Shown one piece after another: positions 24,711 through 45,830 of a DNA stretch of 53,665 nt. This stretch comes from Methanosarcinales archaeon (lineage in GTDB: Archaea > Halobacteriota > Syntropharchaeia > Alkanophagales > Methanospirareceae). The first letter of the stretch is position 1; each line of letters opens with the position of its first letter. The translations under genes and the position numbers were made by a program. The notes below the pieces were generated by a model, which did no database searches, was not told the origin of the DNA, and saw only the letters and a program-made list of their open reading frames with translations. The stretch covers positions 1 through 53,665 of the forward strand of contig JAUWPM010000002.1 in NCBI GenBank assembly GCA_030611585.1, written 5' to 3'.

Positions 24711-24712
24711 AA

Positions 24713-26737: not shown

Positions 26738-26755
26738 TAGAATACTCGGCGAAAG

Positions 26756-32157: not shown

Positions 32158-32937
32158 ATGTTATCGTTAGAAAAGAAGATCCTATGCCTTTTGTTGAGAG
32201 AGGGAGAAGTACCGGTAGAAAGGCTAATAAAGATACTAAGGAACTTCAAAGAGTCCGAGGCGTCAGTAAGAACCGCCTTATCGAGATTAAAGAAGGAAGG
32301 ATTTGTAGAAAGTAAAAAGAGCGGTAAAAAAGCCTCTTATTCCCTTACCGACCTCGGAAAGGATGCAATCGTGTTTAAAGAATACAAGCTGCTCATGCGT
32401 GATAGGAACTGGGATGGTCAGTGGCACATCGTAACCTTTGACATACCTGAGAAATTCAGGTACAGCAGGGATGTTTTGCGAAAGATGCTTCTTTCACTTG
32501 GTTATGGAACCCTCCATTCCTCTGTTATGATCTCCCCATACGATAGAGGAGAAGAGATAAAGGAGACGGTGCGTGAATACGGAATTGAAGATTATGTGGA
32601 GTTTTTTACCGCGAAATACGAGAGTAACAAGGATATAAAGGATATAGTGCCAAAAATATGGGACTTTAAGTGGTTGGAGAGGCAGTACAATAAATTTATC
32701 TTGATTTACAAGAATGAACTGGAAGAATTAAAAAAGAAAGTGGAAGAAGGAGATGGCATAGACCCAAGTTATGCGTTCTTGAAGGGAATTGAATTGAATG
32801 AATACTTTTCACGCATTATTTCTGCGGATCCTCATCTCCCATGGGAACTCCTCCCGGATGACTGGATAGAATTTAAGGCAGAGCGAGTATGCGATGAATA
32901 TCTTCAATTTTTGGAGAGTATGGAAAAGGAAAAATGA
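32158..32937 (+). CDS. PaaX-family transcriptional regulator
   Basis: N-terminal wHTH followed by the WDGQWHIVTFDIPE..RD.LRK.L..LGYG pattern diagnostic of the PaaX family. Confidence 0.75.
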   Translation: MLSLEKKILCLLLREGEVPVERLIKILRNFKESEASVRTALSRLKKEGFVESKKSGKKASYSLTDLGKDAIVFKEYKLLMRDRNWDGQWHIVTFDIPEKFRYSRDVLRKMLLSLGYGTLHSSVMISPYDRGEEIKETVREYGIEDYVEFFTAKYESNKDIKDIVPKIWDFKWLERQYNKFILIYKNELEELKKKVEEGDGIDPSYAFLKGIELNEYFSRIISADPHLPWELLPDDWIEFKAERVCDEYLQFLESMEKEK

Positions 32938-34412
32938 GAAAAGGAGTTTTGGTAAAGCCGTATGAGAGATTGGAAAAAGCACAGATAGAGAAGATACACG
33001 AAGCATCCCTTTCTATTTTAAGGGACCCCGGGATAATATCATATAACAGGGAAGCAGCGGAAATATTCGCGGATAATGGAGCGGAGATTTCTTCCAACAA
33101 TGGCTACTGGCGAATAAGTATTCCTGAGGGGCTTATAGAGGAAAGTGTAAAGCACGCGCCTTCAGTGGTAAAATTGGGTGCGAGAGAGAAAGAGAATAGT
33201 TTAGTTCTGGATGGCAAAGAGCCAAGGGTGAGATTTGGCACTGGCTCAGAAGCGAATGTGATTCTGGATATGGATGTAGAGGATTTTGTAAGCGAGAAAT
33301 CGGGTATTGAAAGACGATTTCCTGTTTTTCAGCGAAGAAGAGGAACTGTTAAAGATCTTTGTCAGTCAGCGCATTTGTGCGAACTTTTGGAGAACGTGGA
33401 TTTCTTTCTCCGAAACGTGAATATACAGGACGATGACATCACGGATGATAACAAAGACGTGAACAAGTTCTATGCTTCGTTGAACAATACGACGAAGCAC
33501 GTGATGGCGGGATTGACGAATTTGGAAAAATTAGATGATGTAATAAGGATGGCAGAGCTTGTTTCTGGTGGTAGGAAAGAGCCGATAATATCTTTCATCG
33601 CTTGTGTAACTAAGAGTCCGCTACAATTTATCAAGGAAAGCACGCAGAACTTGATAGAAATGACAAAGCGGAATTATCCGGTGGTGATCTCAGTCTCGCC
33701 CCAGGGAGGTTCCACAGCACCCATTCAAGAGGCTGGAACGGTAGCACAACAGAATGCGGAGATTTTAGCAGGGGTTGTGCTCAGCCAGTTAGTGCGTGAG
33801 GGGGCTCCCGTATTATACGGCAGCAATCCGCTTCGCGTGAGGATGGATAACTTAGATAATATGTATGGAGCGCCGGAAACAAACCAATATTACATAGGCG
33901 GCGTTCAAATGGCTCGGTTCTACGGGATACCGTGCTATTCGGCTGCGGGCGTTGGAGATTCAAAATTCCCGGGAATAGAAGCTACGGCGGAAAAGATGAT
34001 GTCTCATCTATTTAGCTCACTCTCCGGTGCTCAATACGTGCATTACGCATTTGGATTGCTTGAAGGGACGAATACTCTCTCTTTTGAACAGCTCGTACTG
34101 GATGACCTGCATGTAGGGTTTTGTAAATCAATGTTAAGGGGACAGAGGATAGAAGAGGAGCTGCGAGATAGTTTGGAAGATATCCGAGAAGTAATGGGTA
34201 CATCTCATAAGATGTTCACGAGATATGCGAGGAAATATCTGCGTGCTGGCGAAGTTATCCCTTTCTATCCTTTTGATGGAGATGCGAATGAGACATTGAT
34301 AAAGGCAAGAGAGAGGAAGGGGGATTTGCTCGCTGCTCCGGTGGAAGAGATCCCGGGGGATATAAAGAAGGGGGTATTTCAGGAATTCGACGTGCTGGAG
34401 CGGATAAGATAA
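32934..34412 (+). CDS. MttB-superfamily (trimethylamine methyltransferase-like) substrate:corrinoid methyltransferase, non-pyrrolysine
   Basis: 492-aa uninterrupted ORF with no in-frame TAG. Paralogous to 37146-38609 (shared blocks such as FYA.LNNTTKHVM.G, P.....S.P..G.T.PI, GAP..YG). Confidence 0.8.
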   Translation: MRKGVLVKPYERLEKAQIEKIHEASLSILRDPGIISYNREAAEIFADNGAEISSNNGYWRISIPEGLIEESVKHAPSVVKLGAREKENSLVLDGKEPRVRFGTGSEANVILDMDVEDFVSEKSGIERRFPVFQRRRGTVKDLCQSAHLCELLENVDFFLRNVNIQDDDITDDNKDVNKFYASLNNTTKHVMAGLTNLEKLDDVIRMAELVSGGRKEPIISFIACVTKSPLQFIKESTQNLIEMTKRNYPVVISVSPQGGSTAPIQEAGTVAQQNAEILAGVVLSQLVREGAPVLYGSNPLRVRMDNLDNMYGAPETNQYYIGGVQMARFYGIPCYSAAGVGDSKFPGIEATAEKMMSHLFSSLSGAQYVHYAFGLLEGTNTLSFEQLVLDDLHVGFCKSMLRGQRIEEELRDSLEDIREVMGTSHKMFTRYARKYLRAGEVIPFYPFDGDANETLIKARERKGDLLAAPVEEIPGDIKKGVFQEFDVLERIR

Positions 34413-34422
34413 AGAAAAAGGG

Positions 34423-35112
34423 GTGATAAAAATTTCAGAGGAATTGTTTGCGAAGATAAAAGAGAACGTGATAAAAGGAAGAAGGAATGAAAAAGACGAG
34501 GACCTTGAAGGAGGTAGTGTTGGAGAACCAGGAGTGAAGGAACTCATAGAAGAGGCATTGGAAGGAGGAATTGAGCCTAAAAGATTAATAGAGTGCATTA
34601 ACGATGCGATGGTGACGGTGGGCAAGAAATTCGAGACGGGTGAATACTTCGTTCCTGATATGCTGGCGTCGGCAGAGGCGGTATCGGTGGGTATGGATGT
34701 TTTAGAGCCCCAGCTTTCGAAAGGAGGAATAAAGAAGGAGAAGTTTGTTGTTGCCACCGTAGAAGGTGACATACATGACATCGGGAAGAACATATTCGCG
34801 ATGATGCTAAAAGGTGCGGGGTTCGATGTGATAGACCTGGGTACAGATGTCTCTGCGGATGAGATCGTTAAGACAGTAAAGAACGAAGATGCAGAAATTG
34901 TGGGTATAGGACTTTCTGCTTTGCTGACTACGACGATGGAAAACATGGGAGTAGTAATAGAGAAATTAAGAGAAGAAAAGCTGGAGAAAGAGGTTTTAGT
35001 TGGTGGAGTAGCGGTTTCAAATGAGTATGCAGATAAAATTTGTGCTATTTACTGTGCTGATGCTTTTGAGGGCGTAGATAAGGCTAAGGAGTTGGCGAAG
35101 AAAAGGGGTTGA
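34423..35112 (+). CDS. cobalamin-binding corrinoid protein (MtmC/MttC/MtgC-like)
   Basis: B12-binding DxHxxG motif (EGDIHDIGKN) with an N-terminal helical cap domain. 229 aa. Confidence 0.9.
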   Translation: MIKISEELFAKIKENVIKGRRNEKDEDLEGGSVGEPGVKELIEEALEGGIEPKRLIECINDAMVTVGKKFETGEYFVPDMLASAEAVSVGMDVLEPQLSKGGIKKEKFVVATVEGDIHDIGKNIFAMMLKGAGFDVIDLGTDVSADEIVKTVKNEDAEIVGIGLSALLTTTMENMGVVIEKLREEKLEKEVLVGGVAVSNEYADKICAIYCADAFEGVDKAKELAKKRG

Positions 35113-36314
35113 TGGAAATGGGTATGAGTGACGCGTATGATTATGCGATAAGAAGTGGGAGATATACGAATGGAAGTGAGATAATAGGGAAATATGATAA
35201 TGTGAGAGTTTTGTGGGAAGATGAAATAACGAGGATGGTCTTGAAAACACATATCCAGAGATTGATACGAGGAAGAGACAAGATAAGAATACTGGACATG
35301 GGCTGTGGATACGGGGACGGATATGAGTTGTTGAGGGGTATAAGAGAAGAAAATGGAGATAATTGCAAGTATTTGATTACCGATGAGGAGATAGAATACA
35401 AAGGATTTGACATAAATGAGAGTTTTATAAAGGAAGCGAGTGGAAGATACGGGGGGCATAAAAACACGTCCTTTGAAGTTGCAGACTTCAGCAAAGGTTT
35501 TTCCTTTAAAGACGATGAATCATACGACATTTACTTCACGTCGTATGGCACGCTATCGCACAATGAAGACGAGGCAAATGCAAGGCTATTGGCAGATATT
35601 GCGGAGCATAGCAGTAATAATGGTTGTAAGAGCACAATTGTATGCGATTGGCTGGGAAGATATTCTTATGAATGGCAGAGTTTATGGGCGGATAAGGGCG
35701 ACCCGAATTCAGGAGAAGAAGAAGATTGGATAGATTACAGGATTTCGTATTTCGGTGACAGGAACGTTAAGAGTTTTCCATTGAGGCTAATGGGCAGGGA
35801 TGAGGTAGAAGAGGTGGTGAAAAGGGCGAATGAAATTTCGTCAAGGAGAATAAGGATAAAAGGCTTTTTTGACCGGTCTATTTTAGTTGGCAGGCACATG
35901 GAGACCGGGGAATACAACCGATACTGTGTGCCAATACGGAGAGTGGTGAACTCGTTGTTTGAGAGGAATGTCGTAACAGATTTAGAGCAACTGTTGATAG
36001 ACTATCACAAGAAAGAGGGTACGGGCTTCAATAGGTTGAACAGATTCTTTGAAGAGTTTTGTATGCGCTGGAATGGCGTGATACGCTATACACACGAGTT
36101 GCTTTCTCCGGATAGTAGAGTAGTAAGCCCGCGCTCGAAAGCGGAAGAGGAGATAGAAGAAATCGTAGATAGCGAGATGTGGGGAGAAAATAGCAATCCA
36201 CGTGCTAACCTAATAGAACCGCAACTGGGTTATTTGCTGAGAGAACTTGAAATTGACTTGCAAGAGGGTATTGGTGCTGCTCACGGCTTCATCGCCATAC
36301 TGAATGTAAGTTGA
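35109..36314 (+). CDS. class I SAM-dependent methyltransferase (401 aa, extended C-terminal region)
   Basis: Motif I ILDMGCGYGDG. The start overlaps the corrinoid-protein stop (ATGA-type overlap). Confidence 0.7.
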   Translation: MMEMGMSDAYDYAIRSGRYTNGSEIIGKYDNVRVLWEDEITRMVLKTHIQRLIRGRDKIRILDMGCGYGDGYELLRGIREENGDNCKYLITDEEIEYKGFDINESFIKEASGRYGGHKNTSFEVADFSKGFSFKDDESYDIYFTSYGTLSHNEDEANARLLADIAEHSSNNGCKSTIVCDWLGRYSYEWQSLWADKGDPNSGEEEDWIDYRISYFGDRNVKSFPLRLMGRDEVEEVVKRANEISSRRIRIKGFFDRSILVGRHMETGEYNRYCVPIRRVVNSLFERNVVTDLEQLLIDYHKKEGTGFNRLNRFFEEFCMRWNGVIRYTHELLSPDSRVVSPRSKAEEEIEEIVDSEMWGENSNPRANLIEPQLGYLLRELEIDLQEGIGAAHGFIAILNVS

Positions 36315-36394
36315 GTGGCACATGCATACTTAAAATTCTGCGGATATTTACTTAACTTAAAGCTACTGGAGGTTTAGTAATTACTGAGGCGCTT

Positions 36395-37159
36395 ATGCTG
36401 GTCATCAGTGAGAGGATAAATCAGTTAATAAAGGGAGTAGGGGAAGCGATAAAAGCGCGAGATAGAACTTACGTGCAGGAATTTGCGAAGAAACAGATAG
36501 AGAGTGGAGCGAGTTGCTTAGATGTCCATGTTGAAGATGCAGAAAGGATGAAATGGACAATAGCAACAATAAAAGAGGCTATGGATGTCAGTATCTGTAT
36601 AGACACAACGGATACAGGGGTTTTAAAAGCTGCTCTTTCTGGATGTGATGAGAATAAAGACAAGACGATAGTGAATTCGATAGATTTGGGGAAGAGGTTG
36701 GAGCCTTTTTTAGAGCTGATAAGAGCGCATGAATGTGAATGCGTGGCACTGGCAATAGATGAAAAGGCAGGAATCCCGGATTCCGCAGAGGAGAGATTAG
36801 AAGTATGCAAGAAGATTCTTGATGCGACTTCAAAAGAAGGAATAGGGAAAGACAAGATATATTTCGACCCTCTGGTTTTGCCTGTATCGGTAAATAGCGA
36901 GAACGGATTGATAGCTCTGGAGACATTAGAGTTATTAAAGAGAGAAGGGATGAAAACAACAATTGGACTGACGAATATATCTCAAGACCTGCCAAATAGA
37001 GGTTTATTAGAGGCTGCATATCTCGTGTCATGCCTCAGATATTTGGATGCGGTTATGTTGAATCCGCTGGATAAGCAGGTGATGTCCGTGTTGAAGGCTG
37101 GGGAAGCGGTTTTGGGAATGGATAAGCGTTGCCGTCATTACTTACGTGATTACCGGTGA
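36395..37159 (+). CDS. pterin-binding methyltransferase (methylcorrinoid:tetrahydrofolate/tetrahydromethanopterin methyltransferase, MtgA/MtrH/MeTr-like)
   Basis: 254-aa DHPS-like TIM barrel pattern (GASCLDVHV, ICIDTTD, VNSI, GLTNIS). Confidence 0.7.
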   Translation: MLVISERINQLIKGVGEAIKARDRTYVQEFAKKQIESGASCLDVHVEDAERMKWTIATIKEAMDVSICIDTTDTGVLKAALSGCDENKDKTIVNSIDLGKRLEPFLELIRAHECECVALAIDEKAGIPDSAEERLEVCKKILDATSKEGIGKDKIYFDPLVLPVSVNSENGLIALETLELLKREGMKTTIGLTNISQDLPNRGLLEAAYLVSCLRYLDAVMLNPLDKQVMSVLKAGEAVLGMDKRCRHYLRDYR

Positions 37160-38609
37160 AATAATGGCAAGAGAGATAAAAAAAGGCTTCATGGGGGGGC
37201 AATATAAACCGCTCTCAGCCTATGATGTGGGAAGAATACATGAAACCGCGTTCAGGATTTTAGAAGAGATTGGTGTTCAGGTGGAGCTGAAAGAGGCGTT
37301 GGACATCTTCGAGCGTGGTGGAGCAAAAGTTGATCGTGGAGAGAAGATAGTGAAGATTTCCTCTGAATTAGTAGAAGAGATGGTGGAATCAGCGCCTTCA
37401 AAGATTGTTTTAGGTGGGCGGGAGAAGGAAAACGATCTCGTGCTCGAGGGCACGCGTGTACACATGGGAACTGGCGGTGCAGCACTGAATGTTATTGATG
37501 TGGACAGCGGGGAAAAGAGAAAAGGGACACTCAGGGATATAGCAGATATAGCAAAGCTGACGGATGCCCTTGATAATATACACTTTTTCGTAAGACCCTG
37601 TATAGCGCAAGATATACCTATTGATGATCTCATTGTAAACCAGTTCTATGCTGCTCTTTCTAACACCACCAAGCACGTGATGTCGGGATGTGATAGAGTG
37701 GAGAAAGTGGAAGAAGTAGTAGAGATGGCGGAACTCATAGCTGGCGGAGAATTACGAGACCGACCACCCCTATCGTTCATAACGAGCTGGATGGACAGTC
37801 CTCTCTGTTTCGCCACGGATATTACAAAAGTGCTGATTGAAGTAGTGAAGGAGGGGTTACCCGTGATTCTTTCTTCGGCACCAATGACCGGACTGACATC
37901 CCCTATTACGCTTGCAGGAACTCTGACTCAGTTGCATGCTGAAGAACTATCAGGGATTGTATTAACGCAACTTATAAATCCGGGCGCACCCGTGGTTTAC
38001 GGCGGAATACCCTCTATGGTGGATATGCATAATCTGAGATTTATAGCAGGGGGTGTGGAGTTTGGGATGATGAACGCGGCTATATCTCAGTTGTCTCAGT
38101 CTATCGGACTTCCCAACTACAATTCTGCTGGAATTACCGACGCCTCAATACCCGACATACAGGCAGTATACGAGAAAGCATATTCTATATGCCAGTGTGC
38201 ACTCTCGGGGTCCAATCTTATCCACCATGCGGCAGGTATGCTTGAGTCTTTGCTCACCGTGGATTATGGACTGTACGTCATAGATAACGAGATAATAGGA
38301 ATGGCTATGAGGGGTGTGCGGGGGATAGAAGTGAACGAAGACACACTGGCTCTGGACGAGATAAAGAAGGTTGGACCTGGCGGAGATTATTTGCGTTCTA
38401 AACACACACGTGGACACATGAGGACTGAGTTCTTTGAACCCATGCTCGCAAGCAGGGAAGAGCGAGGAGATAAGGCTATACAAGGACTTGGCGGCATAAG
38501 GGAATTAGCAAAGTCGAAAGCAAAGGAGATACTTAATACGCATACGCCCACAGGTATAGATCCAGAAGTAGATAAAAGAATAAGGGAGAGATTAAATATC
38601 CTTATGTAG
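37146..38609 (+). CDS. MttB-superfamily substrate:corrinoid methyltransferase, second paralogue, non-pyrrolysine
   Basis: 487-aa uninterrupted ORF, paralogous to 32934-34412. The start overlaps the preceding gene. Confidence 0.8.
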   Translation: MITGEIMAREIKKGFMGGQYKPLSAYDVGRIHETAFRILEEIGVQVELKEALDIFERGGAKVDRGEKIVKISSELVEEMVESAPSKIVLGGREKENDLVLEGTRVHMGTGGAALNVIDVDSGEKRKGTLRDIADIAKLTDALDNIHFFVRPCIAQDIPIDDLIVNQFYAALSNTTKHVMSGCDRVEKVEEVVEMAELIAGGELRDRPPLSFITSWMDSPLCFATDITKVLIEVVKEGLPVILSSAPMTGLTSPITLAGTLTQLHAEELSGIVLTQLINPGAPVVYGGIPSMVDMHNLRFIAGGVEFGMMNAAISQLSQSIGLPNYNSAGITDASIPDIQAVYEKAYSICQCALSGSNLIHHAAGMLESLLTVDYGLYVIDNEIIGMAMRGVRGIEVNEDTLALDEIKKVGPGGDYLRSKHTRGHMRTEFFEPMLASREERGDKAIQGLGGIRELAKSKAKEILNTHTPTGIDPEVDKRIRERLNILM

Positions 38610-38625
38610 ATATAGGATATGTATG

Positions 38626-39720
38626 TTACCGATTTCTGAAGTAAGGGATTATTTCCCGCGAATATCGCAGTAAGATGCGCATAGGGTCTGGTCCAACGGG
38701 TACAAAGGCGAAATGAGTAACACCAGCCTTGATATATTCTGCAATTTGCTCAATGCAATCATCCACCGTGCCAGCGATTGAAAAATCTTCTACCACTTCC
38801 ATGGGGACAAACTCTCCGTATTCCTTGAATTTCTTCTCTCCTTCTTCATTTACCATTATCTTCGAATACAGGTCGGGTTCAACAATTGCAAGAGGTTCTG
38901 TCGTATAGCCGCCCTCCTCAAGAATTTTTGGCCAGAGAACAATAGAAGATTTGTAAGGCTCAAGCTTTTTAAGCGCGGACTCGTGGTCTTTTCCTATTGT
39001 AGTATAAACATATAATACGCGGTCTATTTCGTCCATTGACCTCCCGGCTTTTCTTGCTCCTTCTTTTACTTCTTCGAGATGCTTCTTATATAACGCTGGG
39101 CTCATAGAACAGGGTATCCAGCCATCAGCCATCTTGCCCGTTAATTCTCTCGTGCGAGGACCGTTAGCGCCGAAGTATATCGGAATGGACTCCTGAAGCG
39201 GATTGATCTGCAAAAATGCGTTCTTCAACTGCCAAAATTCCCCTTCATAGCTAAATACCTCGCCGGACCATAGTTTACGCATTATCTCAACAGCCTCGAT
39301 AAGACGAGAAACAGGCTTCTTCCACGGAATGCCAAATTGCTCGAGATTCATCATCTCACCCGCACCCATTCCCAGGTTTATACGTCCATTAGAAAGGCAA
39401 TCGAGTGTTGCTAACTTCTGTGCAAAAACGCTTGGATGACGTCTAAAAGAATCCGAGACACACGTACCCATTCTAATATGTCTTGTTGTTCCGGCGATAG
39501 CGGTGAACATCGTCCAAACTTCGGGAACTTTTCCTCCTGAAGGCACGGTTAACAGGTGATCAGCCGCCCATAACGAGTCAAAACCCATCTGCTCTGCTCT
39601 TTGTGCATCTACAATGTAAGCGCTCGTCGCCGGTGTAGGAGTTGATAGATACATTCCGAATTTCACTCCTTTCACTTTCATCGTCTTTTCACCTCTCCTT
39701 TGCTTTGCTTCGCTTTCCAT
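38626..39720 (-). CDS. LLM-class F420-dependent oxidoreductase (Mer-like)
   Basis: Luciferase-like monooxygenase fold blocks recalled from methylene-H4MPT reductase (..DHL.., GMGAGE..FGIPWKKP.., IPIYFGANGPR..). 364 aa. Confidence 0.7.
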   Translation of the reverse strand: MESEAKQRRGEKTMKVKGVKFGMYLSTPTPATSAYIVDAQRAEQMGFDSLWAADHLLTVPSGGKVPEVWTMFTAIAGTTRHIRMGTCVSDSFRRHPSVFAQKLATLDCLSNGRINLGMGAGEMMNLEQFGIPWKKPVSRLIEAVEIMRKLWSGEVFSYEGEFWQLKNAFLQINPLQESIPIYFGANGPRTRELTGKMADGWIPCSMSPALYKKHLEEVKEGARKAGRSMDEIDRVLYVYTTIGKDHESALKKLEPYKSSIVLWPKILEEGGYTTEPLAIVEPDLYSKIMVNEEGEKKFKEYGEFVPMEVVEDFSIAGTVDDCIEQIAEYIKAGVTHFAFVPVGPDPMRILLRYSREIIPYFRNR

Positions 39721-39728
39721 TTGTGTTT

Positions 39729-39740
39729 TTAGTATATAAG
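39729..39740 (+). promoter_or_regulatory. putative archaeal TATA box for the activase-AOR operon (would give a near-leaderless transcript)
   Basis: TTAGTATATAAG is centred ~26 nt upstream of the ATG at 39763, in a 42-bp divergent intergenic region. Confidence 0.3.
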
Positions 39741-39762
39741 CCTTACATAAACTATTAGGATA

Positions 39763-41625
39763 ATGAAAGGAGATATTTGTACAGCGGTCTTCCTGCCCGA
39801 AGGTAAACGAGCAGAATTTAAACGCGGGTTTAGCATTTTAGAAGCTGCGGAAAGTATAGATCTGAAGATAGAATCTGCCTGCGGCGGGCAGCAAAAATGT
39901 GGCATGTGTAAAGTCATTCCTACGGGTAATTTAAGTAAACTAACACAGGACGAGCTGCGATTGCTAACGGAGGAAGAAGTTGAGCAGGGTTATAGATTAG
40001 CCTGTGCTGCGACTATTCAGGGAGATGTAAGAATAACAGTGCCGGTGGAGAGTAGAATAGGGGAACAGAGGCTGCAGATAGATGGAATTGAGCAAACTGT
40101 AAGTTTGGATCCCGCTGTGCGTAAGTATACAGTTGCACTTCCCGTAGCGACACTTGAGGATGTAAGAACAGATAAAGAGAGGATTTTGGAGAGAATAAAA
40201 GAAGTGTTCGGACTCGATTTGGAGGTTGAATACGGCGTGTATAAACAATTGCCGGGAGCAATAAGGGATGGTGAATGGACTGTTTCAGTGACGGTGTGGA
40301 ATGGAAAGAGAATATTGTCGGTTGAGCCAGGCGTGGTCAGGCATGCATACGGTGTTGCAGTGGATGTAGGGACGACGAAAATAGCGGTGTATCTTTTGAA
40401 TTTGAGGAATGGTGAAGTTATAGGAAAGGAGGCAATAGTAAATCCACAGATAAAATACGGCGAGGATGTTGTCTCCAGGATCAGTTACGCGACGGATGCG
40501 GATAAAAATTTAGAGAGACTGCAAACAAGCGTGATTGGGGCTATCGAGCAACTCATAAAAGACACTTGTGCGGAGGTCGGAGTGGAAACAAGACACATTT
40601 ATGAGATTGTAGTGGTTGGAAATACCGTTATGCAGCATTTATTACTTGGTGTCAGTCCAAAATACGTGGGCAGGTCGCCTTATTGTGCCGTATTAGGAAG
40701 TGGAGATTTTAGGGCATCCGATATAGGGCTAAAAGCAAATGTCAATGCCAATGCTTATCTCCATACATTCCCCGTAATAGGGGGGTTTGTAGGAGGAGAT
40801 CACGTATCCGCCATTTTAGCTACTAAGATGAACGAGTCGGAAGAAATGAGTATGTTAATGGACATAGGAACGAACACGGAAATAGCAATGGGAAACAAAG
40901 AGGATATGATTTCATGCTCCTGCGCTTCCGGTCCCGCATTTGAAGGATATTACATAAAACACGGAATGCGTGCATTGTCAGGTGCAATCGAGCATGTGGA
41001 GATAAATCCTGAGACGTTTGACGTGAGATACAGAACGATAGATGAAGTGCGAGCAAGAGGTTTATGCGGCTCGGGTTTAATAGATTTACTTGCAGAACTG
41101 CTGAAAACCGGTATGATGGACTCTACTGGGAAGTTAAACACCGAAATCGAGTCAAACAGAATAACAACAAATAAGGATGCAGTCGAATTCGTGGTGGCAT
41201 GGGAGAGAGAGACAGACATAGACTCGGACGTGGTGATAACGCAGCGAGATATACGGGAGTTACAATCGGCAAAGGCTGCTATGCGGGCTGGAGCGGAGAT
41301 TTTGATGCTGAAAAAAGGGCTAAAAGAAGAGGATATTGACGTTTTTTATATCGCAGGAGCATTTGGGAGTTACATTGAGCCGGAGAATGCGAGAATAATA
41401 GGTATGTATCCGGAAGTGGATTTGGAGCGAGTGAAGATAGTAGGAAATGCAGCGGGTTCTGGCGCAAAACTTGCGTTAATATCTGTAGAAGAGCGTACGC
41501 ATGCAGAAGAGATAGCGAAGAAGGTGCGATATGTAGAACTCGCTGCCGAACCGAAATTCACGAGATGTTATATGCTGTCACATTATTTCCCGTTTGGAGG
41601 AACTTTAGCAGACGTAAGGAGGTGA
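39763..41625 (+). CDS. ATP-dependent reductive activator of corrinoid proteins (RACo/AcsV-type; N-terminal 2Fe-2S ferredoxin plus ASKHA/DUF4445 domain)
   Basis: N-terminal Cys pattern CGGQQKCGMC...LAC, followed by an ASKHA ATPase-like region (VAVDVGTTKIAV, DIGTNTE, GNAAGSGA). Confidence 0.8.
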   Translation: MKGDICTAVFLPEGKRAEFKRGFSILEAAESIDLKIESACGGQQKCGMCKVIPTGNLSKLTQDELRLLTEEEVEQGYRLACAATIQGDVRITVPVESRIGEQRLQIDGIEQTVSLDPAVRKYTVALPVATLEDVRTDKERILERIKEVFGLDLEVEYGVYKQLPGAIRDGEWTVSVTVWNGKRILSVEPGVVRHAYGVAVDVGTTKIAVYLLNLRNGEVIGKEAIVNPQIKYGEDVVSRISYATDADKNLERLQTSVIGAIEQLIKDTCAEVGVETRHIYEIVVVGNTVMQHLLLGVSPKYVGRSPYCAVLGSGDFRASDIGLKANVNANAYLHTFPVIGGFVGGDHVSAILATKMNESEEMSMLMDIGTNTEIAMGNKEDMISCSCASGPAFEGYYIKHGMRALSGAIEHVEINPETFDVRYRTIDEVRARGLCGSGLIDLLAELLKTGMMDSTGKLNTEIESNRITTNKDAVEFVVAWERETDIDSDVVITQRDIRELQSAKAAMRAGAEILMLKKGLKEEDIDVFYIAGAFGSYIEPENARIIGMYPEVDLERVKIVGNAAGSGAKLALISVEERTHAEEIAKKVRYVELAAEPKFTRCYMLSHYFPFGGTLADVRR

Positions 41626-41632
41626 AGAGTAC

Positions 41633-43279
41633 ATGGGTGCAGACGAAATGAAAGTAGCGTACATAGATTTAAGCAAAGAAAAAGCAGAAGTGAGGGATAG
41701 AAGCGATCTATCGAGCTATTTCGGAGGTGCAGGAGTGGCTTTTAAGCTGCTGAACGAATACAAAGATGTATTGCGAACGAACGCACTACGGGTTGAGCAG
41801 CCTATAATATTCGCAAAAGGGTTCTTTACCGGTATTTACCCTTGTGCAACGAAAGTTACAGCGGCTTTCAAGTCGCCTCTTACCGGGGAACTGGGCGAGA
41901 GTCATGCAGGAGGGAATCTCTCTTACGCAATGGCGAGTGCAGGATTAGATGCAATCGTTATCGAAGGAGCATCAGAAACGCCGGTTCATATACGAATAGA
42001 TGAATCAGGCATAGAGATAAAAGAAGCGGAGAAGCTTTGGGGATTGTCGTGCTTTGAAGTTGAAAACCGATTGGATGGAAGAAGTAAAATGTATATCGGC
42101 AAAGCAGGAGAAATACAGATTCCTTTCGCTTGTGTTACCGTTGATAGATATAGACACTTCGGCAGATTGGGCTTGGGAACGTTATTCGGGTCAAAAAGAT
42201 TAAAAGCGCTAACAATATCGGGTAAAAAGCGAATCAGAGTAAAGAGCAGCTATTATCGAGAAATACTTAAGCGGATAAAAGAGGATAACGACCTTAAGAA
42301 ATACAGTGAGGGCTATGGCACTTCAGAGAACACCGTAATGATGAATGAAGTAGGTGGTTTACCTGCGGAAAACCTTCAAGCGAACAGGTTTAATGTGGAA
42401 GGATTAACAGAAGATGCATTCGCGAAGTTTCTGGTAGAGAAAAAGACATGCTCGGGTTGCCCAATAAGATGTATAAACGTAGCGAAGCGGGACGCAGATT
42501 CGCCGAGGATAGCTTACGACTATGAACTGATATACTCCTTAGGACCGCTGTTAGGGATAGGAGAAGCGAAAGAAGTTTTTAGACTGTTAGAGAAAGTAGA
42601 GAAATACGGTTTGGATGCAATAGCCACGGGGAACTTGTTAGCATGGGCAACGGAAGCGTATGAGAAAGGTTTAATTAAACTTTTAGTACCTTTAAAGTTT
42701 GGAGCAACGGAGAACTACTTGGAAACGATAGATAAGCTTGTAGAAGGAGAGGGGATTTACAAGGATTTGAGGAAGGGGACAGAGGAGGCTGCTTCGATAT
42801 ACGGAGGAAAAGATTTTGCTCTAACACTGGGGAAGAATGCAATGGCAGGGTATCATACAGGATATGCACTGATATTGGGGCAGGCGGCAGGACAGCGGCA
42901 TTCACACATGGATAATAACGCATGGTTTCTGGATTTTGAGAAATATCCGTCGGAAGAAGTGGTGGATGAGCTCATTTCAGACGAGAAGAAGAGATGTTTG
43001 ATGAATTCTATGGGGCTTTGCTTGTTCGCAATAAGCGTCTACGATCTCAAGACAATTTCTGAAGGACTTAACGCGATAGGGATAGATAAAAGCGAGGAAG
43101 AGCTTTTTGAAGTAGGAGCAGAGATATTCGAGATAAAGAAGGAGATAAAGCGAGTATGTGGGTTTGAATACGAGAAGTTAAGGTTTCCAGAGAGGTTGTT
43201 TGAGACAGAGAGCATGAACGGGTTTTTGAACAGAGAAACGTTGGATAAGATGCTGAAGAGGTATGTGGAGAGGATGTAG
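41633..43279 (+). CDS. aldehyde:ferredoxin oxidoreductase (AOR) family tungsto/molybdopterin enzyme
   Basis: AOR N-terminal domain (YIDLS.., GG.G....L) and a C-terminal domain with the CSGCPIRC cluster-ligand region. 548 aa. Confidence 0.8.
   Translation: MGADEMKVAYIDLSKEKAEVRDRSDLSSYFGGAGVAFKLLNEYKDVLRTNALRVEQPIIFAKGFFTGIYPCATKVTAAFKSPLTGELGESHAGGNLSYAMASAGLDAIVIEGASETPVHIRIDESGIEIKEAEKLWGLSCFEVENRLDGRSKMYIGKAGEIQIPFACVTVDRYRHFGRLGLGTLFGSKRLKALTISGKKRIRVKSSYYREILKRIKEDNDLKKYSEGYGTSENTVMMNEVGGLPAENLQANRFNVEGLTEDAFAKFLVEKKTCSGCPIRCINVAKRDADSPRIAYDYELIYSLGPLLGIGEAKEVFRLLEKVEKYGLDAIATGNLLAWATEAYEKGLIKLLVPLKFGATENYLETIDKLVEGEGIYKDLRKGTEEAASIYGGKDFALTLGKNAMAGYHTGYALILGQAAGQRHSHMDNNAWFLDFEKYPSEEVVDELISDEKKRCLMNSMGLCLFAISVYDLKTISEGLNAIGIDKSEEELFEVGAEIFEIKKEIKRVCGFEYEKLRFPERLFETESMNGFLNRETLDKMLKRYVERM
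43139..43278 (+). repeat. 140-bp direct repeat, copy 1 (functional 3' end of the AOR gene)
   Basis: Read as identical base for base to 43912-44051. Identity stops at the third base of the stop codon (TAG here, TAA in copy 2). Confidence 0.9.
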
Positions 43280-44053: not shown

Positions 44054-44104
44054 CACACTTTTTCTTTTTTGGGCAAAAAAGAAAACCTGTGCTAAAAGAA
44101 AAAA
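44054..44104 (-). repeat. half copy of the 128-bp MITE-like repeat
   Basis: CACACTTTTTCTTTTTTGGGCAAAAAAGAAAACCTGTGCTAAAAGAAAAA closely matches the reverse complement of 9975-10030. It supplies the last codons and the stop of the gene at 44092-44778. Confidence 0.7.
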
Positions 44105-44778
44105 GTTTGATGCATAGGAATAATATAATCAGCGATTTCTTTTAGCCGTGCCAAGCTGTCATAGGCTTCGAGTAAATTGGTGTGATAAGCAGGAGGGATG
44201 ATTTGTGGCTCGAAGTTCTCCTTAATACAGCATAGACCCTCTATTACCTCTTTACCTCGCGCTGTATTGATCAGTACAGATTGACTCCCGGGGCTGTGTC
44301 CGGGTGTTTTCAAAAGCTTCAGACCCGGGAATATCTCTTTATCTCCTTCAATCACTTCTATATCCTGTCTTTCTATTGCCTTCAGATTATACCAGGTGCG
44401 CACTGCAGGATGTGGGCTTTGTGCGAATTCTAACTCATCTTTTTGCAGAAAGAACCTCGCATTCGTATATTTGTAAGCTAAATCCACATGCCCGGTGTGA
44501 AGATGCGTTTGTATAACGATATCTATGTCCTGCGGAGCTAAGCCAAGCTTCCCCAGCCCTTCCTCTATACTTTGAACTTTATTTGCAGGATAACCCAACT
44601 TAGATAGTAGCTTTGGATCGCCTCCCGAATCCACCAATATATTTTCCCTTGCTCCTTCGATGTACCACACGTAGCCAGTAGTAGTTATTACATCATCGAA
44701 ATTGCGATGCATATAGAGGTGTTCTGCCTTTTTTACCTTCCCACTGAAAAGTGGCACGTAATGTATTTTGTATTTCAT
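44092..44778 (-). CDS. MBL-fold metallo-hydrolase (lactonase-like)
   Basis: THLHTGHVD (a variant of HxHxDH) and a downstream TPGHSPGS motif. 228 aa. Confidence 0.75.
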   Translation of the reverse strand: MKYKIHYVPLFSGKVKKAEHLYMHRNFDDVITTTGYVWYIEGARENILVDSGGDPKLLSKLGYPANKVQSIEEGLGKLGLAPQDIDIVIQTHLHTGHVDLAYKYTNARFFLQKDELEFAQSPHPAVRTWYNLKAIERQDIEVIEGDKEIFPGLKLLKTPGHSPGSQSVLINTARGKEVIEGLCCIKENFEPQIIPPAYHTNLLEAYDSLARLKEIADYIIPMHQTFFF

Positions 44779-44801: not shown

Positions 44802-45830
44802 TCAAACCCTGCAAATCTCATATTCCTGTTCACCCAAGCCCAATCTATGTGCTTCTTTAACTTGAATGGTGGGGTCTCCTTCAAAGGAGTGCTTACCTAT
44901 CAAATCAATGGTGGCCTGGTCTATTGCAACTATGTCTTTAGAGGCTAAAATACCTATATCCGGGCACATGTACTCCGGCGAGAGGTCTTCACAATCGCAG
45001 AAAGGCGTAATATCAATCAGGAAATTGATGAAGATGCAATTGGAATAAGGAAGGCTTTTCAGAACCGTATTTGCAACTTCTGCAATTCGGAGCTGAAAAT
45101 TCTCTTTTGCTCCCACTTGCAAATGCAATGCGCCCGTTTCACACGCCGCGATACAACAACCGCAACCAACACATTTCTCGTTTATCAATTCCCGGTCATC
45201 CCGGTCACCATTTTCTTTTATTTCTATTGCATCGAATTTGCATTCCTCTATGCACGCATCACACTGAGTACACAGCTCGTTATCATACGTGGGCTTTGTC
45301 ACTTCGTGCTGATAAATCTTGCTCTTCTTAGTTACGCATCCCATTGCAACGTTTTTTATCGCGCCACCAAATGAAGCAGAGCCATGCCCCGTAGCATGCG
45401 AAAGAAGAAGCATCGCGTCACTGTCATATATGCTCCTCGCAATCTCCACTTTCTCGTTCACTTGCACACCTTCGTCTTTCAACCCATCGGCTATAATCAC
45501 CGGGCAGCCGAGATAAGACGGTAGGAACCCATGCTCGAATGCTGTTCTGTAATAGTCCATTGCATTATACCTCGCTAACTTGTATACGGTCGTAGTATCG
45601 GTAACAAAAGTGTCTCCGCCGTGCTTTTTCAACACTTCCACTATCTTCCTCACGTAAACAGGCTTGAGGAACGTCTTGTTCTTTCGCTCGCCCATGTGCA
45701 TCTTCAGAGCAACAACCCCGTTCAAGTTCCCAACGCCAACTCTTCCCAGTAGTGTTCCGAGCTTCTCTATAAGTAGAACGTTCTCATTTGCATTTGCGGG
45801 TATGAAGTATACTTTGCTCATTTTTATCAA
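44802..45830 (-). CDS. DUF362-domain protein with an inserted 2x[4Fe-4S] ferredoxin domain
   Basis: CTQCDACIEEC and CVGCGCCIAAC cluster motifs embedded in a DUF362-like scaffold. 342 aa. Confidence 0.7.
   Translation of the reverse strand: MIKMSKVYFIPANANENVLLIEKLGTLLGRVGVGNLNGVVALKMHMGERKNKTFLKPVYVRKIVEVLKKHGGDTFVTDTTTVYKLARYNAMDYYRTAFEHGFLPSYLGCPVIIADGLKDEGVQVNEKVEIARSIYDSDAMLLLSHATGHGSASFGGAIKNVAMGCVTKKSKIYQHEVTKPTYDNELCTQCDACIEECKFDAIEIKENGDRDDRELINEKCVGCGCCIAACETGALHLQVGAKENFQLRIAEVANTVLKSLPYSNCIFINFLIDITPFCDCEDLSPEYMCPDIGILASKDIVAIDQATIDLIGKHSFEGDPTIQVKEAHRLGLGEQEYEICRV

What the first reader, a model, noticed from the sequence alone, without database searches (positions are those of the whole stretch)
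32158..43279. Eleven-kb corrinoid methyl-transfer cluster with two amber-free MttB paralogues and a pterin-binding methyltransferase in an archaeal context
Gene order: PaaX-like regulator, MttB-family 1, corrinoid protein, SAM methyltransferase, pterin-binding methyltransferase, MttB-family 2, (minus strand) Mer-like F420 oxidoreductase, RACo-type activase, AOR. Several starts overlap the previous stops. Neither MttB ORF contains an in-frame TAG, so both belong to the non-pyrrolysine branch. Characterised members of that branch demethylate quaternary amines (for example glycine betaine, proline betaine, carnitine). Together with a methylcorrinoid:pterin methyltransferase and an ATP-dependent activase, this is a complete MT1-CoP-MT2-activase system. 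It would feed methyl groups to H4F/H4MPT rather than to coenzyme M (no MtbA/MtaA-type gene is present). The substrates of the two paralogues, and the roles of the Mer-like enzyme and the AOR, are unknown. Inference: methyl-group oxidation or assimilation from an unidentified methylated compound.
Basis: partly seen in the sequence, partly recalled or inferred. Interest (0 to 1): 0.7.

Follow-up and report, generated by a model that had tools for sequence, protein, structure and literature searches.

The report
Corrinoid methyl-transfer operon, probably ANME-1
This is a real, conserved gene cluster for vitamin-B12-type methyl transfer in a probable methane-oxidising archaeon; it matters because these archaea were thought to lack such systems and because its core genes form a widespread, unstudied module shared with sediment bacteria.

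Summary
All nine genes exist as described. Both MttB ORFs are full length, with Val (MttB1) or Ile (MttB2) where pyrrolysine would sit.

The cluster recurs on at least 18 archaeal contigs. One is from the type MAG of ANME-1 genus QEXZ01.
- Conserved archaeal core: PaaX, MttB1, corrinoid protein, a class-I SAM methyltransferase, RACo, pterin MT, AOR.
- Accessory: MttB2 (one sub-clade only) and the Mer-like gene (absent or deleted in close relatives).

It is a small family, and in 73 of 73 genome loci it sits directly downstream of an MttB1-type gene. Bacteria of ten or more lineage labels carry the same module, with a MetH-type activation domain replacing RACo. They often add an AsnB-like gene and OpuAC transporters.

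Neither MttB keeps the glycine-betaine-binding residues of MtgB; the carboxylate-binding Arg is Tyr. Neighbouring genes point to compatible-solute metabolism.

Best reading (0.55): demethylation of a non-acidic methylated onium compound onto H4MPT. The substrate, the SAM-MT role and the direction of methyl flow remain open. I class it as a new variant of a known kind.

The parts
32158..32937 (+). PaaX-family transcriptional regulator; first gene of the archaeal operon, overlapping MttB1 by 4 nt
   Evidence: Pfam PaaX, PaaX_M and PaaX_C. TIGR02277 scores 146 bits, below its cut-off of 265. Present upstream of MttB1 on every archaeal locus that reaches that far, at 77-90% identity.
32934..34412 (+). 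MttB1: non-pyrrolysine MttB-superfamily methyltransferase (MT1) of the '513-type' clade; core gene of the module
   Evidence: PF06253 at 227 bits. Val at the Pyl position and S/Y/Y/T at MtgB positions Y97/R312/H348/F356. 74-87% identical to archaeal orthologues and 45-59% to the bacterial 513-type.
34423..35112 (+). Cognate corrinoid protein (cap domain plus B12-binding domain, DxHxxG)
   Evidence: PF02607 plus PF02310; TIGR02370 at 163 bits. DIHDIG motif in the translation. It follows MttB1 or the 513-type MttB in all archaeal loci and in most bacterial ones; the Planctomycetota-type loci have no corrinoid protein in the cluster.
35109..36314 (+). Dedicated class I SAM-dependent methyltransferase (likely start ATG 35118); substrate unknown
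   Evidence: Methyltransf_25/31 hits and no NCBIfam family. The family has only 475 representatives among 1.84 billion. An MttB1/513-type gene lies directly upstream in 73 of 73 genome loci. Fusions exist to the corrinoid protein and to AsnB-like enzymes. The AF2 model gives only generic class I matches.
36395..37159 (+). Methyl-corrinoid:pterin methyltransferase (MT2), MeTr/AcsE type
   Evidence: Pterin_bind 69 bits; NF005719 216 bits. PDB 2yci MeTr 125 bits, D. hafniense 4o0q 115 bits, full length.
37146..38609 (+). MttB2: second non-pyrrolysine MttB paralogue (likely start ATG 37164); accessory, found only in the window's sub-clade
   Evidence: PF06253 at 395 bits. Ile at the Pyl position and G/Y/H/L at the MtgB sites. 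36% identical to MttB1 and 57-62% to a third, mainly bacterial clade often next to OpuAC transporters. Absent from variant-B archaeal loci.
38626..39720 (-). Mer-like F420-type luciferase-like oxidoreductase; accessory and dispensable
   Evidence: Bac_luciferase 237 bits; F420_mer 200 bits against a cut-off of 349. Best solved match is Mer 8qq8 (171 bits, full length), at roughly 35-40% identity by my reading of the printed alignment. Absent in L001, 824-bp internal deletion in L002, absent in variant B.
39763..41625 (+). RACo-type ATP-dependent reductive activase of corrinoid proteins, with an N-terminal 2Fe-2S domain
   Evidence: Fer2, RACo_linker, RACo_middle and RACo_C_ter; AcsV model 492 bits. 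Variant B has a shorter RACo (about 460 aa, no Fer2, 37-42% identical). Bacteria carry a stand-alone Met_synt_B12 protein instead.
41633..43279 (+). Aldehyde:ferredoxin oxidoreductase family enzyme; last gene of the plus-strand run, 7 nt after RACo
   Evidence: AFOR_N plus AFOR_C; P. furiosus AOR 1aor 189 bits; CxxCxxxC motif. Follows the operon in every archaeal locus that reaches that far, at 79-90% identity. AOR-family genes occupy the position after the SAM-MT in Chloroflexota-type loci L023, L027 and L100.
44092..44778 (-). Metallo-beta-lactamase-fold protein; syntenic neighbour of uncertain membership
   Evidence: Lactamase_B. Follows AOR in L002, L003, L010, L012, L015 and L016.
44802..45830 (-). 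DUF362 protein with an inserted 2x[4Fe-4S] domain; syntenic neighbour and possible accessory redox partner
   Evidence: DUF362 plus Fer4. Syntenic in the archaeal loci. DUF362/Fer4 genes also lie inside or beside bacterial versions (L008, L020, L030, L033, L038, L060, L089).

Best explanation
The region is a functional operon for corrinoid-dependent methyl transfer in an archaeon that is most likely ANME-1 (Methanophagales).

Proposed mechanism:
1. MttB1, and in this sub-clade also MttB2, binds a methylated onium or amine compound and passes one methyl group to the Co(I) form of the adjacent corrinoid protein.
2. The MeTr-type MT2 passes the methyl group on to a pterin. In this host that is probably H4MPT.
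3. RACo uses ATP and a low-potential electron to re-reduce corrinoid that has slipped to Co(II).
4. The PaaX-like protein regulates the operon.

The substrate is probably not a carboxylate-anchored betaine of the MtgB, MtpB or MtcB kind, because the carboxylate-binding Arg is replaced by Tyr, as in the pyrrolysine TMA enzyme. Gene neighbourhoods place the module in compatible-solute (osmolyte) metabolism.

The dedicated SAM methyltransferase, and the carboxylate/aldehyde enzyme that follows the module (AOR here, AsnB-like in bacteria), most likely modify the substrate or the demethylated product. This would parallel the kinase MthK, which prepares choline for MthB.

Shown: gene identities, conservation, co-occurrence, active-site residues. 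Inferred: the direction of methyl flow, H4MPT as acceptor, the substrate class and the roles of the SAM-MT and AOR.
For: - A complete MT1 / CoP / MT2 / activase set with intact motifs.
- All characterised MttB-superfamily members are demethylases that methylate a cognate corrinoid protein, with a MeTr-like MT2 passing the methyl group to a folate (PMC13080624; PMC12155760).
- The operon is conserved on at least 18 archaeal contigs in two architectures.
- A homologous bacterial operon exists in ten or more lineage labels, frequently with in-operon OpuAC-type ABC importers; 22 of 73 genome loci have one. L010 carries an MFS transporter inside the archaeal operon.
- A ligand-responsive PaaX-type repressor is typical of catabolic operons (background knowledge).
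- Precedent for an accessory enzyme that makes the true MttB substrate: MthK.
- Precedent for archaeal MT2 enzymes delivering methyl groups to H4MPT: the Mto system (PMC8630106 and PMC8359953).
- ANME-1 lack H4F-dependent genes (PMC9012536).
- ANME-1 affiliation: L010 (84% nt identity over the cluster) is contig QEXZ01000012 of the MAG that names ANME-1 genus QEXZ01. L016 and L017 are labelled Methanophagales.
Against: - A catabolic demethylase has no obvious need for a SAM-dependent methyltransferase, yet that gene is the tightest partner of MttB1 and is even fused to the corrinoid protein in one representative.
- The bacterial versions use a MetH-type SAM-dependent activation domain, which is typical of the biosynthetic enzyme MetH.
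- Most archaeal loci carry no transporter.
- The host assignment rests on similarity of the cluster itself, which could have been transferred. No housekeeping marker in the window could be compared with a named genome.
- There is no expression or biochemical evidence.
Confidence: 0.55

Rival explanations
1. The module runs in the methylating direction and makes a betaine-type compatible solute cheaply. MT2 loads methyl groups from methyl-H4MPT or methyl-H4F onto the corrinoid protein, as AcsE and MetH do. The MttB paralogue(s) pass them to a primary or secondary amine. The SAM methyltransferase performs the energetically demanding final quaternisation.
For: - The SAM-MT is strictly linked to the MttB1/513-type gene, in 73 of 73 loci.
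- Typical bacterial operons hold two MttBs plus one SAM-MT, which equals three methylation steps.
- MT2 and the activase are closest to AcsE and AcsV.
- Bacteria use the MetH activation domain.
- Osmoadaptation genes sit beside the cluster: mannosylglycerate genes (MPGS-MPGP-GH38) directly upstream of PaaX in L012, L014, L094 and L095 and near bacterial L151 and L157; MscS in L010 and L061; TrkAH, MetK and AhcY in the isolate D. suflitae.
- The AsnB-like partner recalls AsnO, which amidates the osmolyte NAGGN (background knowledge). AsnB::SAM-MT fusions exist.
- The profile search gives a weak hit to phosphoethanolamine N-methyltransferase (E = 0.002).
Against: - No MttB-family enzyme is known to work physiologically in this direction.
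- OpuAC importers and a PaaX-type repressor fit catabolism better.
- 15 of 47 MttB513-seeded loci lack the SAM-MT.
- Archaeal variant B has only one MttB.
- MetK, AhcY and Trk adjacency was seen in a single locus.
- The SAM-MT does not resemble known glycine/sarcosine N-methyltransferases.
Confidence: 0.2
2. The SAM methyltransferase acts on the corrinoid protein itself, loading or re-methylating Co(I)/Co(II) from SAM. The module would then be a split, MetH-like methyl relay in which MttB-fold proteins replace the homocysteine domain.
For: - An in-frame CoP::SAM-MT fusion exists (P0423).
- The CoP and SAM-MT genes abut or overlap.
- The bacterial operons contain three of the four MetH modules: Pterin_bind, B12-binding and Met_synt_B12.
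- The methyl donor for methionine synthesis in methanogen relatives is thought to be an unidentified corrinoid protein (PMC9012536).
Against: - Bacterial operons already carry the canonical SAM-binding activation domain, and archaeal ones carry RACo, so a second reactivation device seems redundant.
- No class I Rossmann methyltransferase is known to me to methylate protein-bound cobalamin (background knowledge).
- Only one fusion representative was seen.
- The SAM-MT is also fused to AsnB-like enzymes, which points to a small-molecule substrate.
Confidence: 0.1
3. The genes are neighbours by history only: a laterally acquired remnant with no coherent function in this host. AOR, the MBL-fold gene and DUF362 would be unrelated backbone genes.
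For: - The middle of the cluster (CoP to RACo) is mosaic between archaeal variants, at 37-69% identity against 74-89% for the flanks.
- Upstream context differs between relatives.
- The Mer-like gene is decaying in L002.
- There is an insertion flanked by 140-nt repeats after AOR.
Against: - All ORFs are intact with catalytic motifs.
- The same order is kept on at least 18 archaeal contigs at only 74-90% protein identity, which indicates purifying selection.
- The core is kept across about 150 bacterial loci.
- Gene spacing is tight and the genes share one orientation.
Confidence: 0.05

Closest known systems
MtgB-MtgC-MtgA glycine betaine:THF methyltransferase system (Desulfitobacterium hafniense; PDB 2qne/9yce)
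   Same: It has a non-pyrrolysine MttB-fold MT1, a cognate corrinoid protein, a MeTr-like MT2 and a need for reductive activation. MttB2 aligns over the full length at 276 bits.
   Different: Identity is only 29% (MttB1) and 35% (MttB2). The substrate-binding residues Y97/R312/H348/F356 are S/Y/Y/T in MttB1 and G/Y/H/L in MttB2. The Mtg system as described in the papers read here has no SAM methyltransferase or AOR partner.
MthB-MthC-MthA-MthK phosphocholine/choline:THF system (Eubacterium limosum)
   Same: An MttB-family MT1 needs an accessory enzyme encoded in the same cluster to produce its true substrate (PMC12155760). This is the best functional analogy for a dedicated partner enzyme.
   Different: The accessory enzyme there is a kinase, not a SAM methyltransferase. 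That substrate is again acidic (phosphate).
Pyrrolysine-containing TMA methyltransferase MttB (Methanosarcina; PDB 7xcl)
   Same: Same fold. It shares Tyr at the MtgB-R312 column, and MttB1 also shares Tyr at the H348 column. It is the best PDB hit for MttB1, at 163 bits.
   Different: The window's genes have no in-frame UAG; Val or Ile replaces pyrrolysine. Methyl transfer here is to a pterin MT2 rather than to MtbA and CoM. Identity is 32-37%.
Mto methoxydotrophic system (Methermicoccus shengliensis, Archaeoglobus fulgidus)
   Same: It is an archaeal, bacteria-like MT1 / CoP / MT2 / activase cluster that delivers methyl groups to H4MPT instead of CoM (PMC8630106 and PMC8359953).
Predicted non-methanogenic methylotrophy with non-Pyl MttB in Brockarchaeota, Culexarchaeia and Asgard archaea
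   Same: These are genomic predictions of MttB-like plus corrinoid protein feeding the H4F or H4MPT branch (PMC8065059, PMC9723716, PMC11291895).
   Different: The lineages are different. The passages I read describe no linked SAM methyltransferase, RACo or AOR operon. The Asgard version is next to MtrH and GcvH.
Cobalamin-dependent methionine synthase MetH (modular)
   Same: The bacterial relatives of the cluster encode separate Pterin_bind, B12-cap/B12-binding and Met_synt_B12 activation modules. The window's MT2 matches the MetH pterin module at 73-77 bits.
   Different: There is no homocysteine-binding module; MttB-fold proteins stand in its place. The archaeal version uses RACo instead of the SAM-dependent activation domain.

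Membership tests
MttB superfamily (PF06253/COG5598) | Full-length match to the MTTB TIM-barrel profile | tested here: met
   MttB2 scores 395 bits over profile positions 30-490 of 500. MttB1 scores 227 bits over 29-423 of 500, and its C-terminal 70 aa or so is divergent. Both align over most (MttB1) or all (MttB2) of the length of the solved 2qne/9yce/7xcl chains.
Pyrrolysine TMA methyltransferase MttB (TIGR02369 equivalog) | In-frame UAG / pyrrolysine at the active-site position, and a score above the equivalog cut-off | tested here: not met
   There is no stop codon. Val (MttB1) and Ile (MttB2) align with the Pyl (X) of 7xcl. TIGR02369 scores 283 and 435 bits against a cut-off of 525.
MtgB glycine betaine methyltransferase | Substrate-binding residues Y97, R312, H348 and F356 (PMC13080624) | tested here: not met
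   MttB1 has S, Y, Y, T (0 of 4). MttB2 has G, Y, H, L (1 of 4). The pattern is constant within each clade.
Characterised acidic quaternary-amine MttB members (MtgB, MtpB, MtcB, MtyB) | A conserved Arg (MtgB R312) forming a salt bridge to the substrate acid group | tested here: not met
   Tyr occupies this column in MttB1, MttB2 and all 513-type and 485-type sequences sampled, and in all but one MttB2-type sequence, which has Phe.
Methyltransferase-cognate corrinoid proteins (TIGR02370) | B12-binding_2 cap plus a B12-binding Rossmann domain with DxHxxG | tested here: met
   PF02607 54 bits and PF02310 85 bits. DIHDIG in the sequence. TIGR02370 scores 163 bits, below its cut-off of 215.
MeTr/AcsE-type methyl-pterin:corrinoid methyltransferases (Pterin_bind) | A pterin-binding TIM barrel homologous over its full length to MeTr | tested here: met
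   PF00809 scores 69 bits, above its cut-off of 25.5. NF005719 scores 216 bits, below its cut-off of 259. 2yci scores 125 bits over residues 2-254. Pterin specificity (H4F or H4MPT) cannot be tested with these tools.
RACo/AcsV reductive activators of corrinoid enzymes | 2Fe-2S ferredoxin domain, linker, middle domain and ASKHA ATPase domain | tested here: met
   All four Pfam domains are above their cut-offs. The AcsV model scores 492 bits, below its exception cut-off of 800.
Mer (F420-dependent methylene-H4MPT reductase) | A score above the equivalog cut-offs of TIGR03555 and NF002619 | tested here: not met
   Scores are 200 bits against 349 and 199 bits against 276. Its best solved-structure matches are Mer chains (171 bits, full length; roughly 35-40% identity by my reading of the alignment). 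Scores to FGD (131 bits) and Adf (120 bits) are not far below. It is best called a Mer-related F420-type LLM oxidoreductase.
Tungsten/molybdenum aldehyde:ferredoxin oxidoreductase family | AFOR_N plus AFOR_C domains and a [4Fe-4S] Cys motif | tested here: met
   193 and 201 bits. CSGCPIRC motif. 1aor scores 189 bits over residues 17-544. The subfamily and substrate are not assignable.
PaaX phenylacetyl-CoA-responsive repressor (TIGR02277) | A score above the equivalog cut-off | tested here: not met
   146 bits against a cut-off of 265. All three PaaX Pfam domains are present. It is therefore a PaaX-family regulator with an unknown ligand.
ANME-1 (Methanophagales) genome | Housekeeping markers placing the contig in ANME-1 | tested here: inconclusive
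   Only cluster-based evidence is available. The cluster shows 84-88% nt identity and synteny with contigs of MAGs that include QEXZ01 (the type of an ANME-1 genus) and Methanophagales-labelled MAGs. No marker gene in the window could be compared with a named genome.

The most novel reading that the evidence does not exclude
The MttB1 / corrinoid protein / SAM-methyltransferase module is a SAM-sparing N-methylation pathway. Methyl groups from the Wood-Ljungdahl pool (methyl-H4MPT or methyl-H4F) would be passed through the corrinoid protein and a reversed MttB reaction to an amine. One SAM-dependent step would finish a betaine-type osmolyte. This would be the first biosynthetic use of the MttB superfamily. 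It would also be a new low-cost osmolyte route in energy-starved sediment anaerobes, including ANME-1.
Probability: 0.15. Interest if true: 0.85.

Novelty: new variant of a known kind. Interest (0 to 1): 0.6.

Why it matters
1. The main comparative study of ANME genomes (PMC9012536) reports that no ANME genome carries substrate-specific methylotrophic methyltransferases. It uses this to argue against methylated compounds in ANME metabolism, and it reports Mer as absent from all ANME-1. This cluster recurs on contigs of MAGs labelled Methanophagales or belonging to ANME-1 genus QEXZ01. It encodes a complete methyl-transfer system feeding a pterin, and in one sub-clade also a Mer-related enzyme. 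If it is expressed, ANME-1 can draw on, or make, methylated osmolytes. That bears on the debate over whether ANME-1 do anything besides methane oxidation.

2. The cluster exposes a widespread module with no description in the literature I could search. It consists of a 513-type MttB, a corrinoid protein and a private SAM methyltransferase, with or without an AsnB-like or AOR enzyme. It occurs in Desulfobacterota, Chloroflexota, Nitrospirota, Planctomycetota and other lineages. Many of these genes are currently annotated generically as trimethylamine methyltransferase family proteins.

3. One cultured isolate, Desulfoferrobacter suflitae DRH4, carries the bacterial version, so the question can be tested directly.

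Tried and rejected
- Bathyarchaeia 'MtgB' lignin O-demethylase. It is an unrelated protein of about 300 aa and not a member of the MttB family. Rejected as a relative.
- Foldseek of the AF2 model of the SAM-MT (pLDDT 74) against the PDB, and a profile search against PDB sequences. These gave only generic class I small-molecule methyltransferases (TM-score 0.41 or lower) and a weak phosphoethanolamine N-methyltransferase hit. No specific assignment was possible.
- ArsA_HSP20 ATPase plus a small ORF upstream of PaaX. A similar pair sits next to the bacterial loci L006 and L104, but the ATPases are only 33% identical and the small ORFs are not homologous. I treat this as coincidence.
- MetK, AhcY and TrkAH next to the D. 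suflitae operon. The arrangement was found in that locus only, so it carries little weight.
- Taxonomic placement of the window through exact-sequence cluster look-up and encoding-contig look-up. No names were returned.
- Literature searches for the MttB + SAM-MT + AsnB operon and for MttB or MtgB in ANME-1. Nothing relevant was found in the held library.
- True phylogeny against MtpB, MtcB, MtyB and MthB. Their sequences were not obtainable here. I used identities from a MAFFT alignment and active-site columns against MtgB and MttB instead.

Full report
OBSERVATION

The nine ORFs exist exactly as listed. Profile searches give the following:
- A PaaX-family regulator.
- An MttB-family protein of 492 aa (MttB1, PF06253 227 bits).
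- A corrinoid protein with cap and B12-binding domains and a DIHDIG (DxHxxG) motif.
- A 401-aa class I SAM methyltransferase (GCGYGDG motif; no NCBIfam family).
- A 254-aa Pterin_bind protein.
- A second MttB (MttB2, 395 bits).
- On the minus strand, a luciferase-like F420-type oxidoreductase whose best model is Mer (200 bits, cut-off 349).
- A four-domain RACo/AcsV-type activase.
- An AOR-family enzyme with a CxxCxxxC motif.

The 254-aa protein aligns over its full length with MeTr/AcsE (2yci, 125 bits) and with the MT2 of a D. hafniense demethylase (4o0q).

Both MttB ORFs align with the solved MttB and MtgB structures over all (MttB2) or most (MttB1) of their length. MttB1 has Val and MttB2 has Ile in the pyrrolysine column.

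None of the window ORFs I scanned with Pfam (those of 150 aa or more, plus two short ORFs beside the cluster, leaving out shadow ORFs nested in those genes) is a URO-D/MtaA-type methyltransferase.

Likely true starts are ATG 35118 for the SAM-MT and ATG 37164 for MttB2, judged from gene calls in relatives (lengths). With those starts, two of the three start/stop overlaps disappear.

CONSERVATION AND ANATOMY IN ARCHAEA

Close homologues of MttB1, MttB2 and the SAM-MT led to at least 18 archaeal contigs. They fall into two architectures.
- Variant A (window, L001, L002, L010, L012, L014; partial L011, L013): PaaX, MttB1, CoP, SAM-MT, pterin MT, MttB2, [Mer-like, minus strand], RACo (620 aa), AOR, then the MBL-fold gene and DUF362/Fer4 on the minus strand.
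- Variant B (L003-L005, L015-L018, L093-L095): PaaX, MttB1, CoP, SAM-MT, RACo (about 460 aa, no Fer2), pterin MT, AOR, the MBL-fold gene, DUF362. It has no MttB2 and no Mer-like gene.

The Mer-like gene is missing in L001. In L002, a strain with 93-97% DNA identity, it carries a clean 824-bp deletion (window 38662-39485).

Per-gene identities between the window and variant B are mosaic:

| Gene | Identity to variant B (%) |
|---|---|
| PaaX | 77-89 |
| MttB1 | 74-82 |
| AOR | 79-88 |
| MBL-fold gene (full-length copies) | 86-89 |
| DUF362 | 75-81 |
| CoP | 64-69 |
| SAM-MT | 53-56 |
| pterin MT | 47-50 |
| RACo | 37-42 |

The middle cassette has therefore been exchanged, while the flanks share one history. 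AOR follows the preceding gene by 7 nt here (28 nt in L003) on the same strand, whichever gene that is. I count it as part of the operon.

HOST

The nearest genome contigs are labelled Methanomicrobiales, Methanosarcinales, Methanobacteriota and Methanophagales.
- L010 shows 84% nt identity across the cluster. It is QEXZ01000012, from the MAG that gives its name to GTDB genus QEXZ01, an ANME-1a genus (PMC9576274, PMC13385816).
- L012 and L014 are 88% identical over window 32067-43266 only.
- Upstream flanks differ between relatives.

The window is thus most likely ANME-1. This rests on the cluster itself; I could not compare a housekeeping marker with a named genome.

THE MODULE IS SHARED WITH BACTERIA

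The SAM-MT is the informative gene.
- A profile of it finds only 475 representatives (E of 1e-3 or better) among 1.84 billion proteins.
- A scan of one genome per species found 408 relatives, and I annotated the 80 best loci.
- In 73 of 73 loci with enough upstream DNA, the SAM-MT lies directly downstream of an MttB1-type ('513-type') gene, usually with the corrinoid protein between them.

The typical bacterial operon runs: Met_synt_B12 (the MetH activation domain as a separate protein), MttB '485-type', pterin MT, MttB '513-type', CoP, SAM-MT, AsnB-like. It often includes an OpuAC-type ABC importer and sometimes a DUF362/Fer4 protein. It occurs in Nitrospirota, Chloroflexota, Desulfobacterota, Planctomycetota, Actinomycetota, Myxococcota, Spirochaetales, Hydrogenedentota and others. 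It also occurs in the isolate Desulfoferrobacter suflitae DRH4 (L061).

The reciprocal scan was seeded with MttB1. Among informative metagenome loci, 32 of 47 have the SAM-MT, and 15 of 47 go straight from CoP to an AsnB-like gene. The SAM-MT therefore depends on the MttB module, not the other way round.

Rosetta-stone fusions exist:
- AsnB-like::SAM-MT (P0399, P0405).
- Usp::SAM-MT (P0426).
- An in-frame CoP::SAM-MT (P0423).

In Chloroflexota-type loci L023, L027 and L100, an AOR-family gene takes the place after the SAM-MT where AsnB usually sits. Both enzyme types act on a carboxylate or aldehyde group. This hints that the pathway's small molecule carries such a group.

THE THREE MttB CLADES

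- MttB1 is 45-59% identical to the bacterial 513-type and 28-35% to the 485-type.
- MttB2 is only 38-45% identical to the 485-type. It is 57-62% identical to a third, large, mainly bacterial clade.
- That third clade sits next to OpuAC transporters. One member lies next to N-methylhydantoinase genes, and several lie beside the SAM-MT cluster itself.
- Identity to D. hafniense MtgB is 29% and 35%; identity to Methanosarcina MttB is 32% and 37%.

The residues shown to bind glycine betaine in MtgB are Y97, R312, H348 and F356 (PMC13080624). At the same columns:

| Protein or clade | Y97 | R312 | H348 | F356 |
|---|---|---|---|---|
| MttB1 / 513-type | S | Y | Y | T |
| MttB2-type | G | Y | H | L/M/I |
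| 485-type | G | Y | D | C/D/A |
| Pyl-MttB (7xcl) | V | Y | Y | G |

Arg312 is described as conserved among all characterised members, whose substrates are all acidic, and as the salt-bridge partner of the acid group. Tyr is present here instead, as in Pyl-MttB. This argues that the substrates are not carboxylate-anchored betaines.

NEIGHBOURHOODS

Compatible-solute genes recur beside the module.
- Mannosylglycerate synthase, its phosphatase and a GH38 enzyme lie directly upstream of PaaX in L012, L014, L094 and L095. GH38 or CN-hydrolase remnants occur in L005, L011, L018, L092 and L096. The same genes lie next to bacterial L151 and L157.
- MscS channels occur in L010 and L061, and an MFS transporter sits inside the L010 operon.
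- OpuAC importers occur in 22 of 73 genome loci.
- MscS, MetK, AhcY and TrkAH flank the D. suflitae operon, but that combination was seen only once.

The window itself has lost the mannosylglycerate context. An ArsA_HSP20 ATPase and a 101-aa ORF lie upstream instead, which I judge to be incidental.

MECHANISM

What is shown: a complete, intact and conserved MT1 / CoP / MT2 / activase set, with a private SAM-MT and a linked AOR.

What is inferred: direction, substrate and acceptor.

My best reading (0.55) is catabolic. A methylated onium or amine compound of the osmolyte world is demethylated by MttB1, with MttB2 possibly taking a second substrate or a second step. The methyl group passes through the corrinoid protein and MT2 to H4MPT; ANME-1 lack H4F enzymes. 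RACo repairs oxidised cofactor. The SAM-MT and AOR would prepare the substrate or process the product, as MthK does for MthB. One concrete but untested possibility is that AOR and the F420-type LLM enzyme interconvert betaine, betaine aldehyde and choline.

The main rival (0.2) reverses the flow: methyl-pterin to CoP to MttB to an amine, with the SAM-MT doing the final quaternisation. This explains the obligatory SAM-MT, the MetH-like parts list in bacteria and the osmoadaptation neighbours. However, it has no precedent in the family.

A third reading (0.1) has the SAM-MT acting on the corrinoid protein itself, as the fusion P0423 hints.

Mere historical adjacency (0.05) is contradicted by the conservation.

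COMPARISON WITH KNOWN SYSTEMS

The system works like the Mtg, Mtp, Mtc, Mty and Mth quaternary-amine systems. In delivering methyl groups to a pterin in an archaeon, it works like the Mto system. It fails the residue-based membership test for MtgB and the equivalog tests for Pyl-MttB, Mer and PaaX.

Genomic predictions of non-Pyl MttB methylotrophy exist for Brockarchaeota, Culexarchaeia and Asgard archaea. I found no paper describing this operon, the MttB-linked SAM-MT family, or any MttB system in ANME-1. The standard comparative study states that ANME lack methylotrophic methyltransferases and that ANME-1 lack Mer.

VERDICT

The feature is a new variant of a known kind. Interest is 0.6.

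Noticed in passing
window 1186-3207 (minus strand): A group II intron. Rfam finds domain D1-D4 at 2239-2358 and two Intron_gpII (domain V/VI) hits at 1186-1260 and 1762-1837. The reverse-transcriptase ORF (2290-3207) and a separate RT-tail/maturase ORF (1292-1756) suggest a disrupted or nested copy. In the near-identical contig L172, Trp-biosynthesis genes lie beyond the molybdopterin gene (MoCF_biosynth), where the window has tRNA-Trp and the intron.
   Followed up: partly
window 43139-43278 and 43912-44051: A perfect 140-nt direct repeat of the 3' end of the AOR gene brackets a 773-bp segment that carries a VapB-like antitoxin ORF (43399-43710, minus strand). The relatives L002, L012 and L014 have a single copy and no insert. 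It is either an insertion with duplication of the target or an assembly artefact.
   Followed up: partly
window 21999-27817: A low-GC island (32-37% against about 46% elsewhere). It holds a 903-aa Eco57I/MmeI-like type IIG restriction-modification enzyme, DUF4145 and DUF6577 proteins and an AbiEii toxin. It is probably a mobile defence island.
   Followed up: no
L002 4762-4774 compared with window 38662-39485: A clean 824-bp deletion inside the Mer-like gene in a strain with 93-97% DNA identity. Only a 92-aa remnant ORF is left.
   Followed up: yes
Bacterial loci, e.g. L006 10296-11816 and L061 13003-14526: The AsnB-like gene that follows the SAM-MT lacks the N-terminal catalytic Cys (it starts MSG...) in 43 of 43 cases, so it cannot hydrolyse glutamine. 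A second AsnB type (MCG...) is intact. Some proteins fuse an intact AsnB to the SAM-MT (P0399, P0405).
   Followed up: partly
L012 1611-6309, L014, L094, L095; bacterial L151 and L157: Mannosylglycerate genes (MPGS, MPGP and a GH38 hydrolase), often with a CN-hydrolase, lie directly upstream of the PaaX-MttB1 operon in several probable ANME-1 contigs and near two bacterial versions. AsnB-like and CN-hydrolase genes could relate to an amide form of that solute.
   Followed up: partly
L010 11848-13305: An MFS transporter gene is inserted between the pterin MT and MttB2 in the QEXZ01 (ANME-1a) version of the operon. It is the only transporter seen inside an archaeal version.
   Followed up: no
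L013 about 1900-3200 (minus strand): A second, divergent SAM-MT paralogue (177 bits) sits next to an AsnB-like fragment upstream of PaaX in an archaeal MAG. The AsnB / SAM-MT pair therefore also exists in these archaea.
   Followed up: no
window 30545-32031; L006 2572-4010: An ArsA_HSP20-type ATPase plus a small ORF lies immediately upstream of the cluster, both here and in the bacterial loci L006 and L104. The ATPases are 33% identical and the small ORFs are unrelated, so this is probably coincidence.
   Followed up: yes
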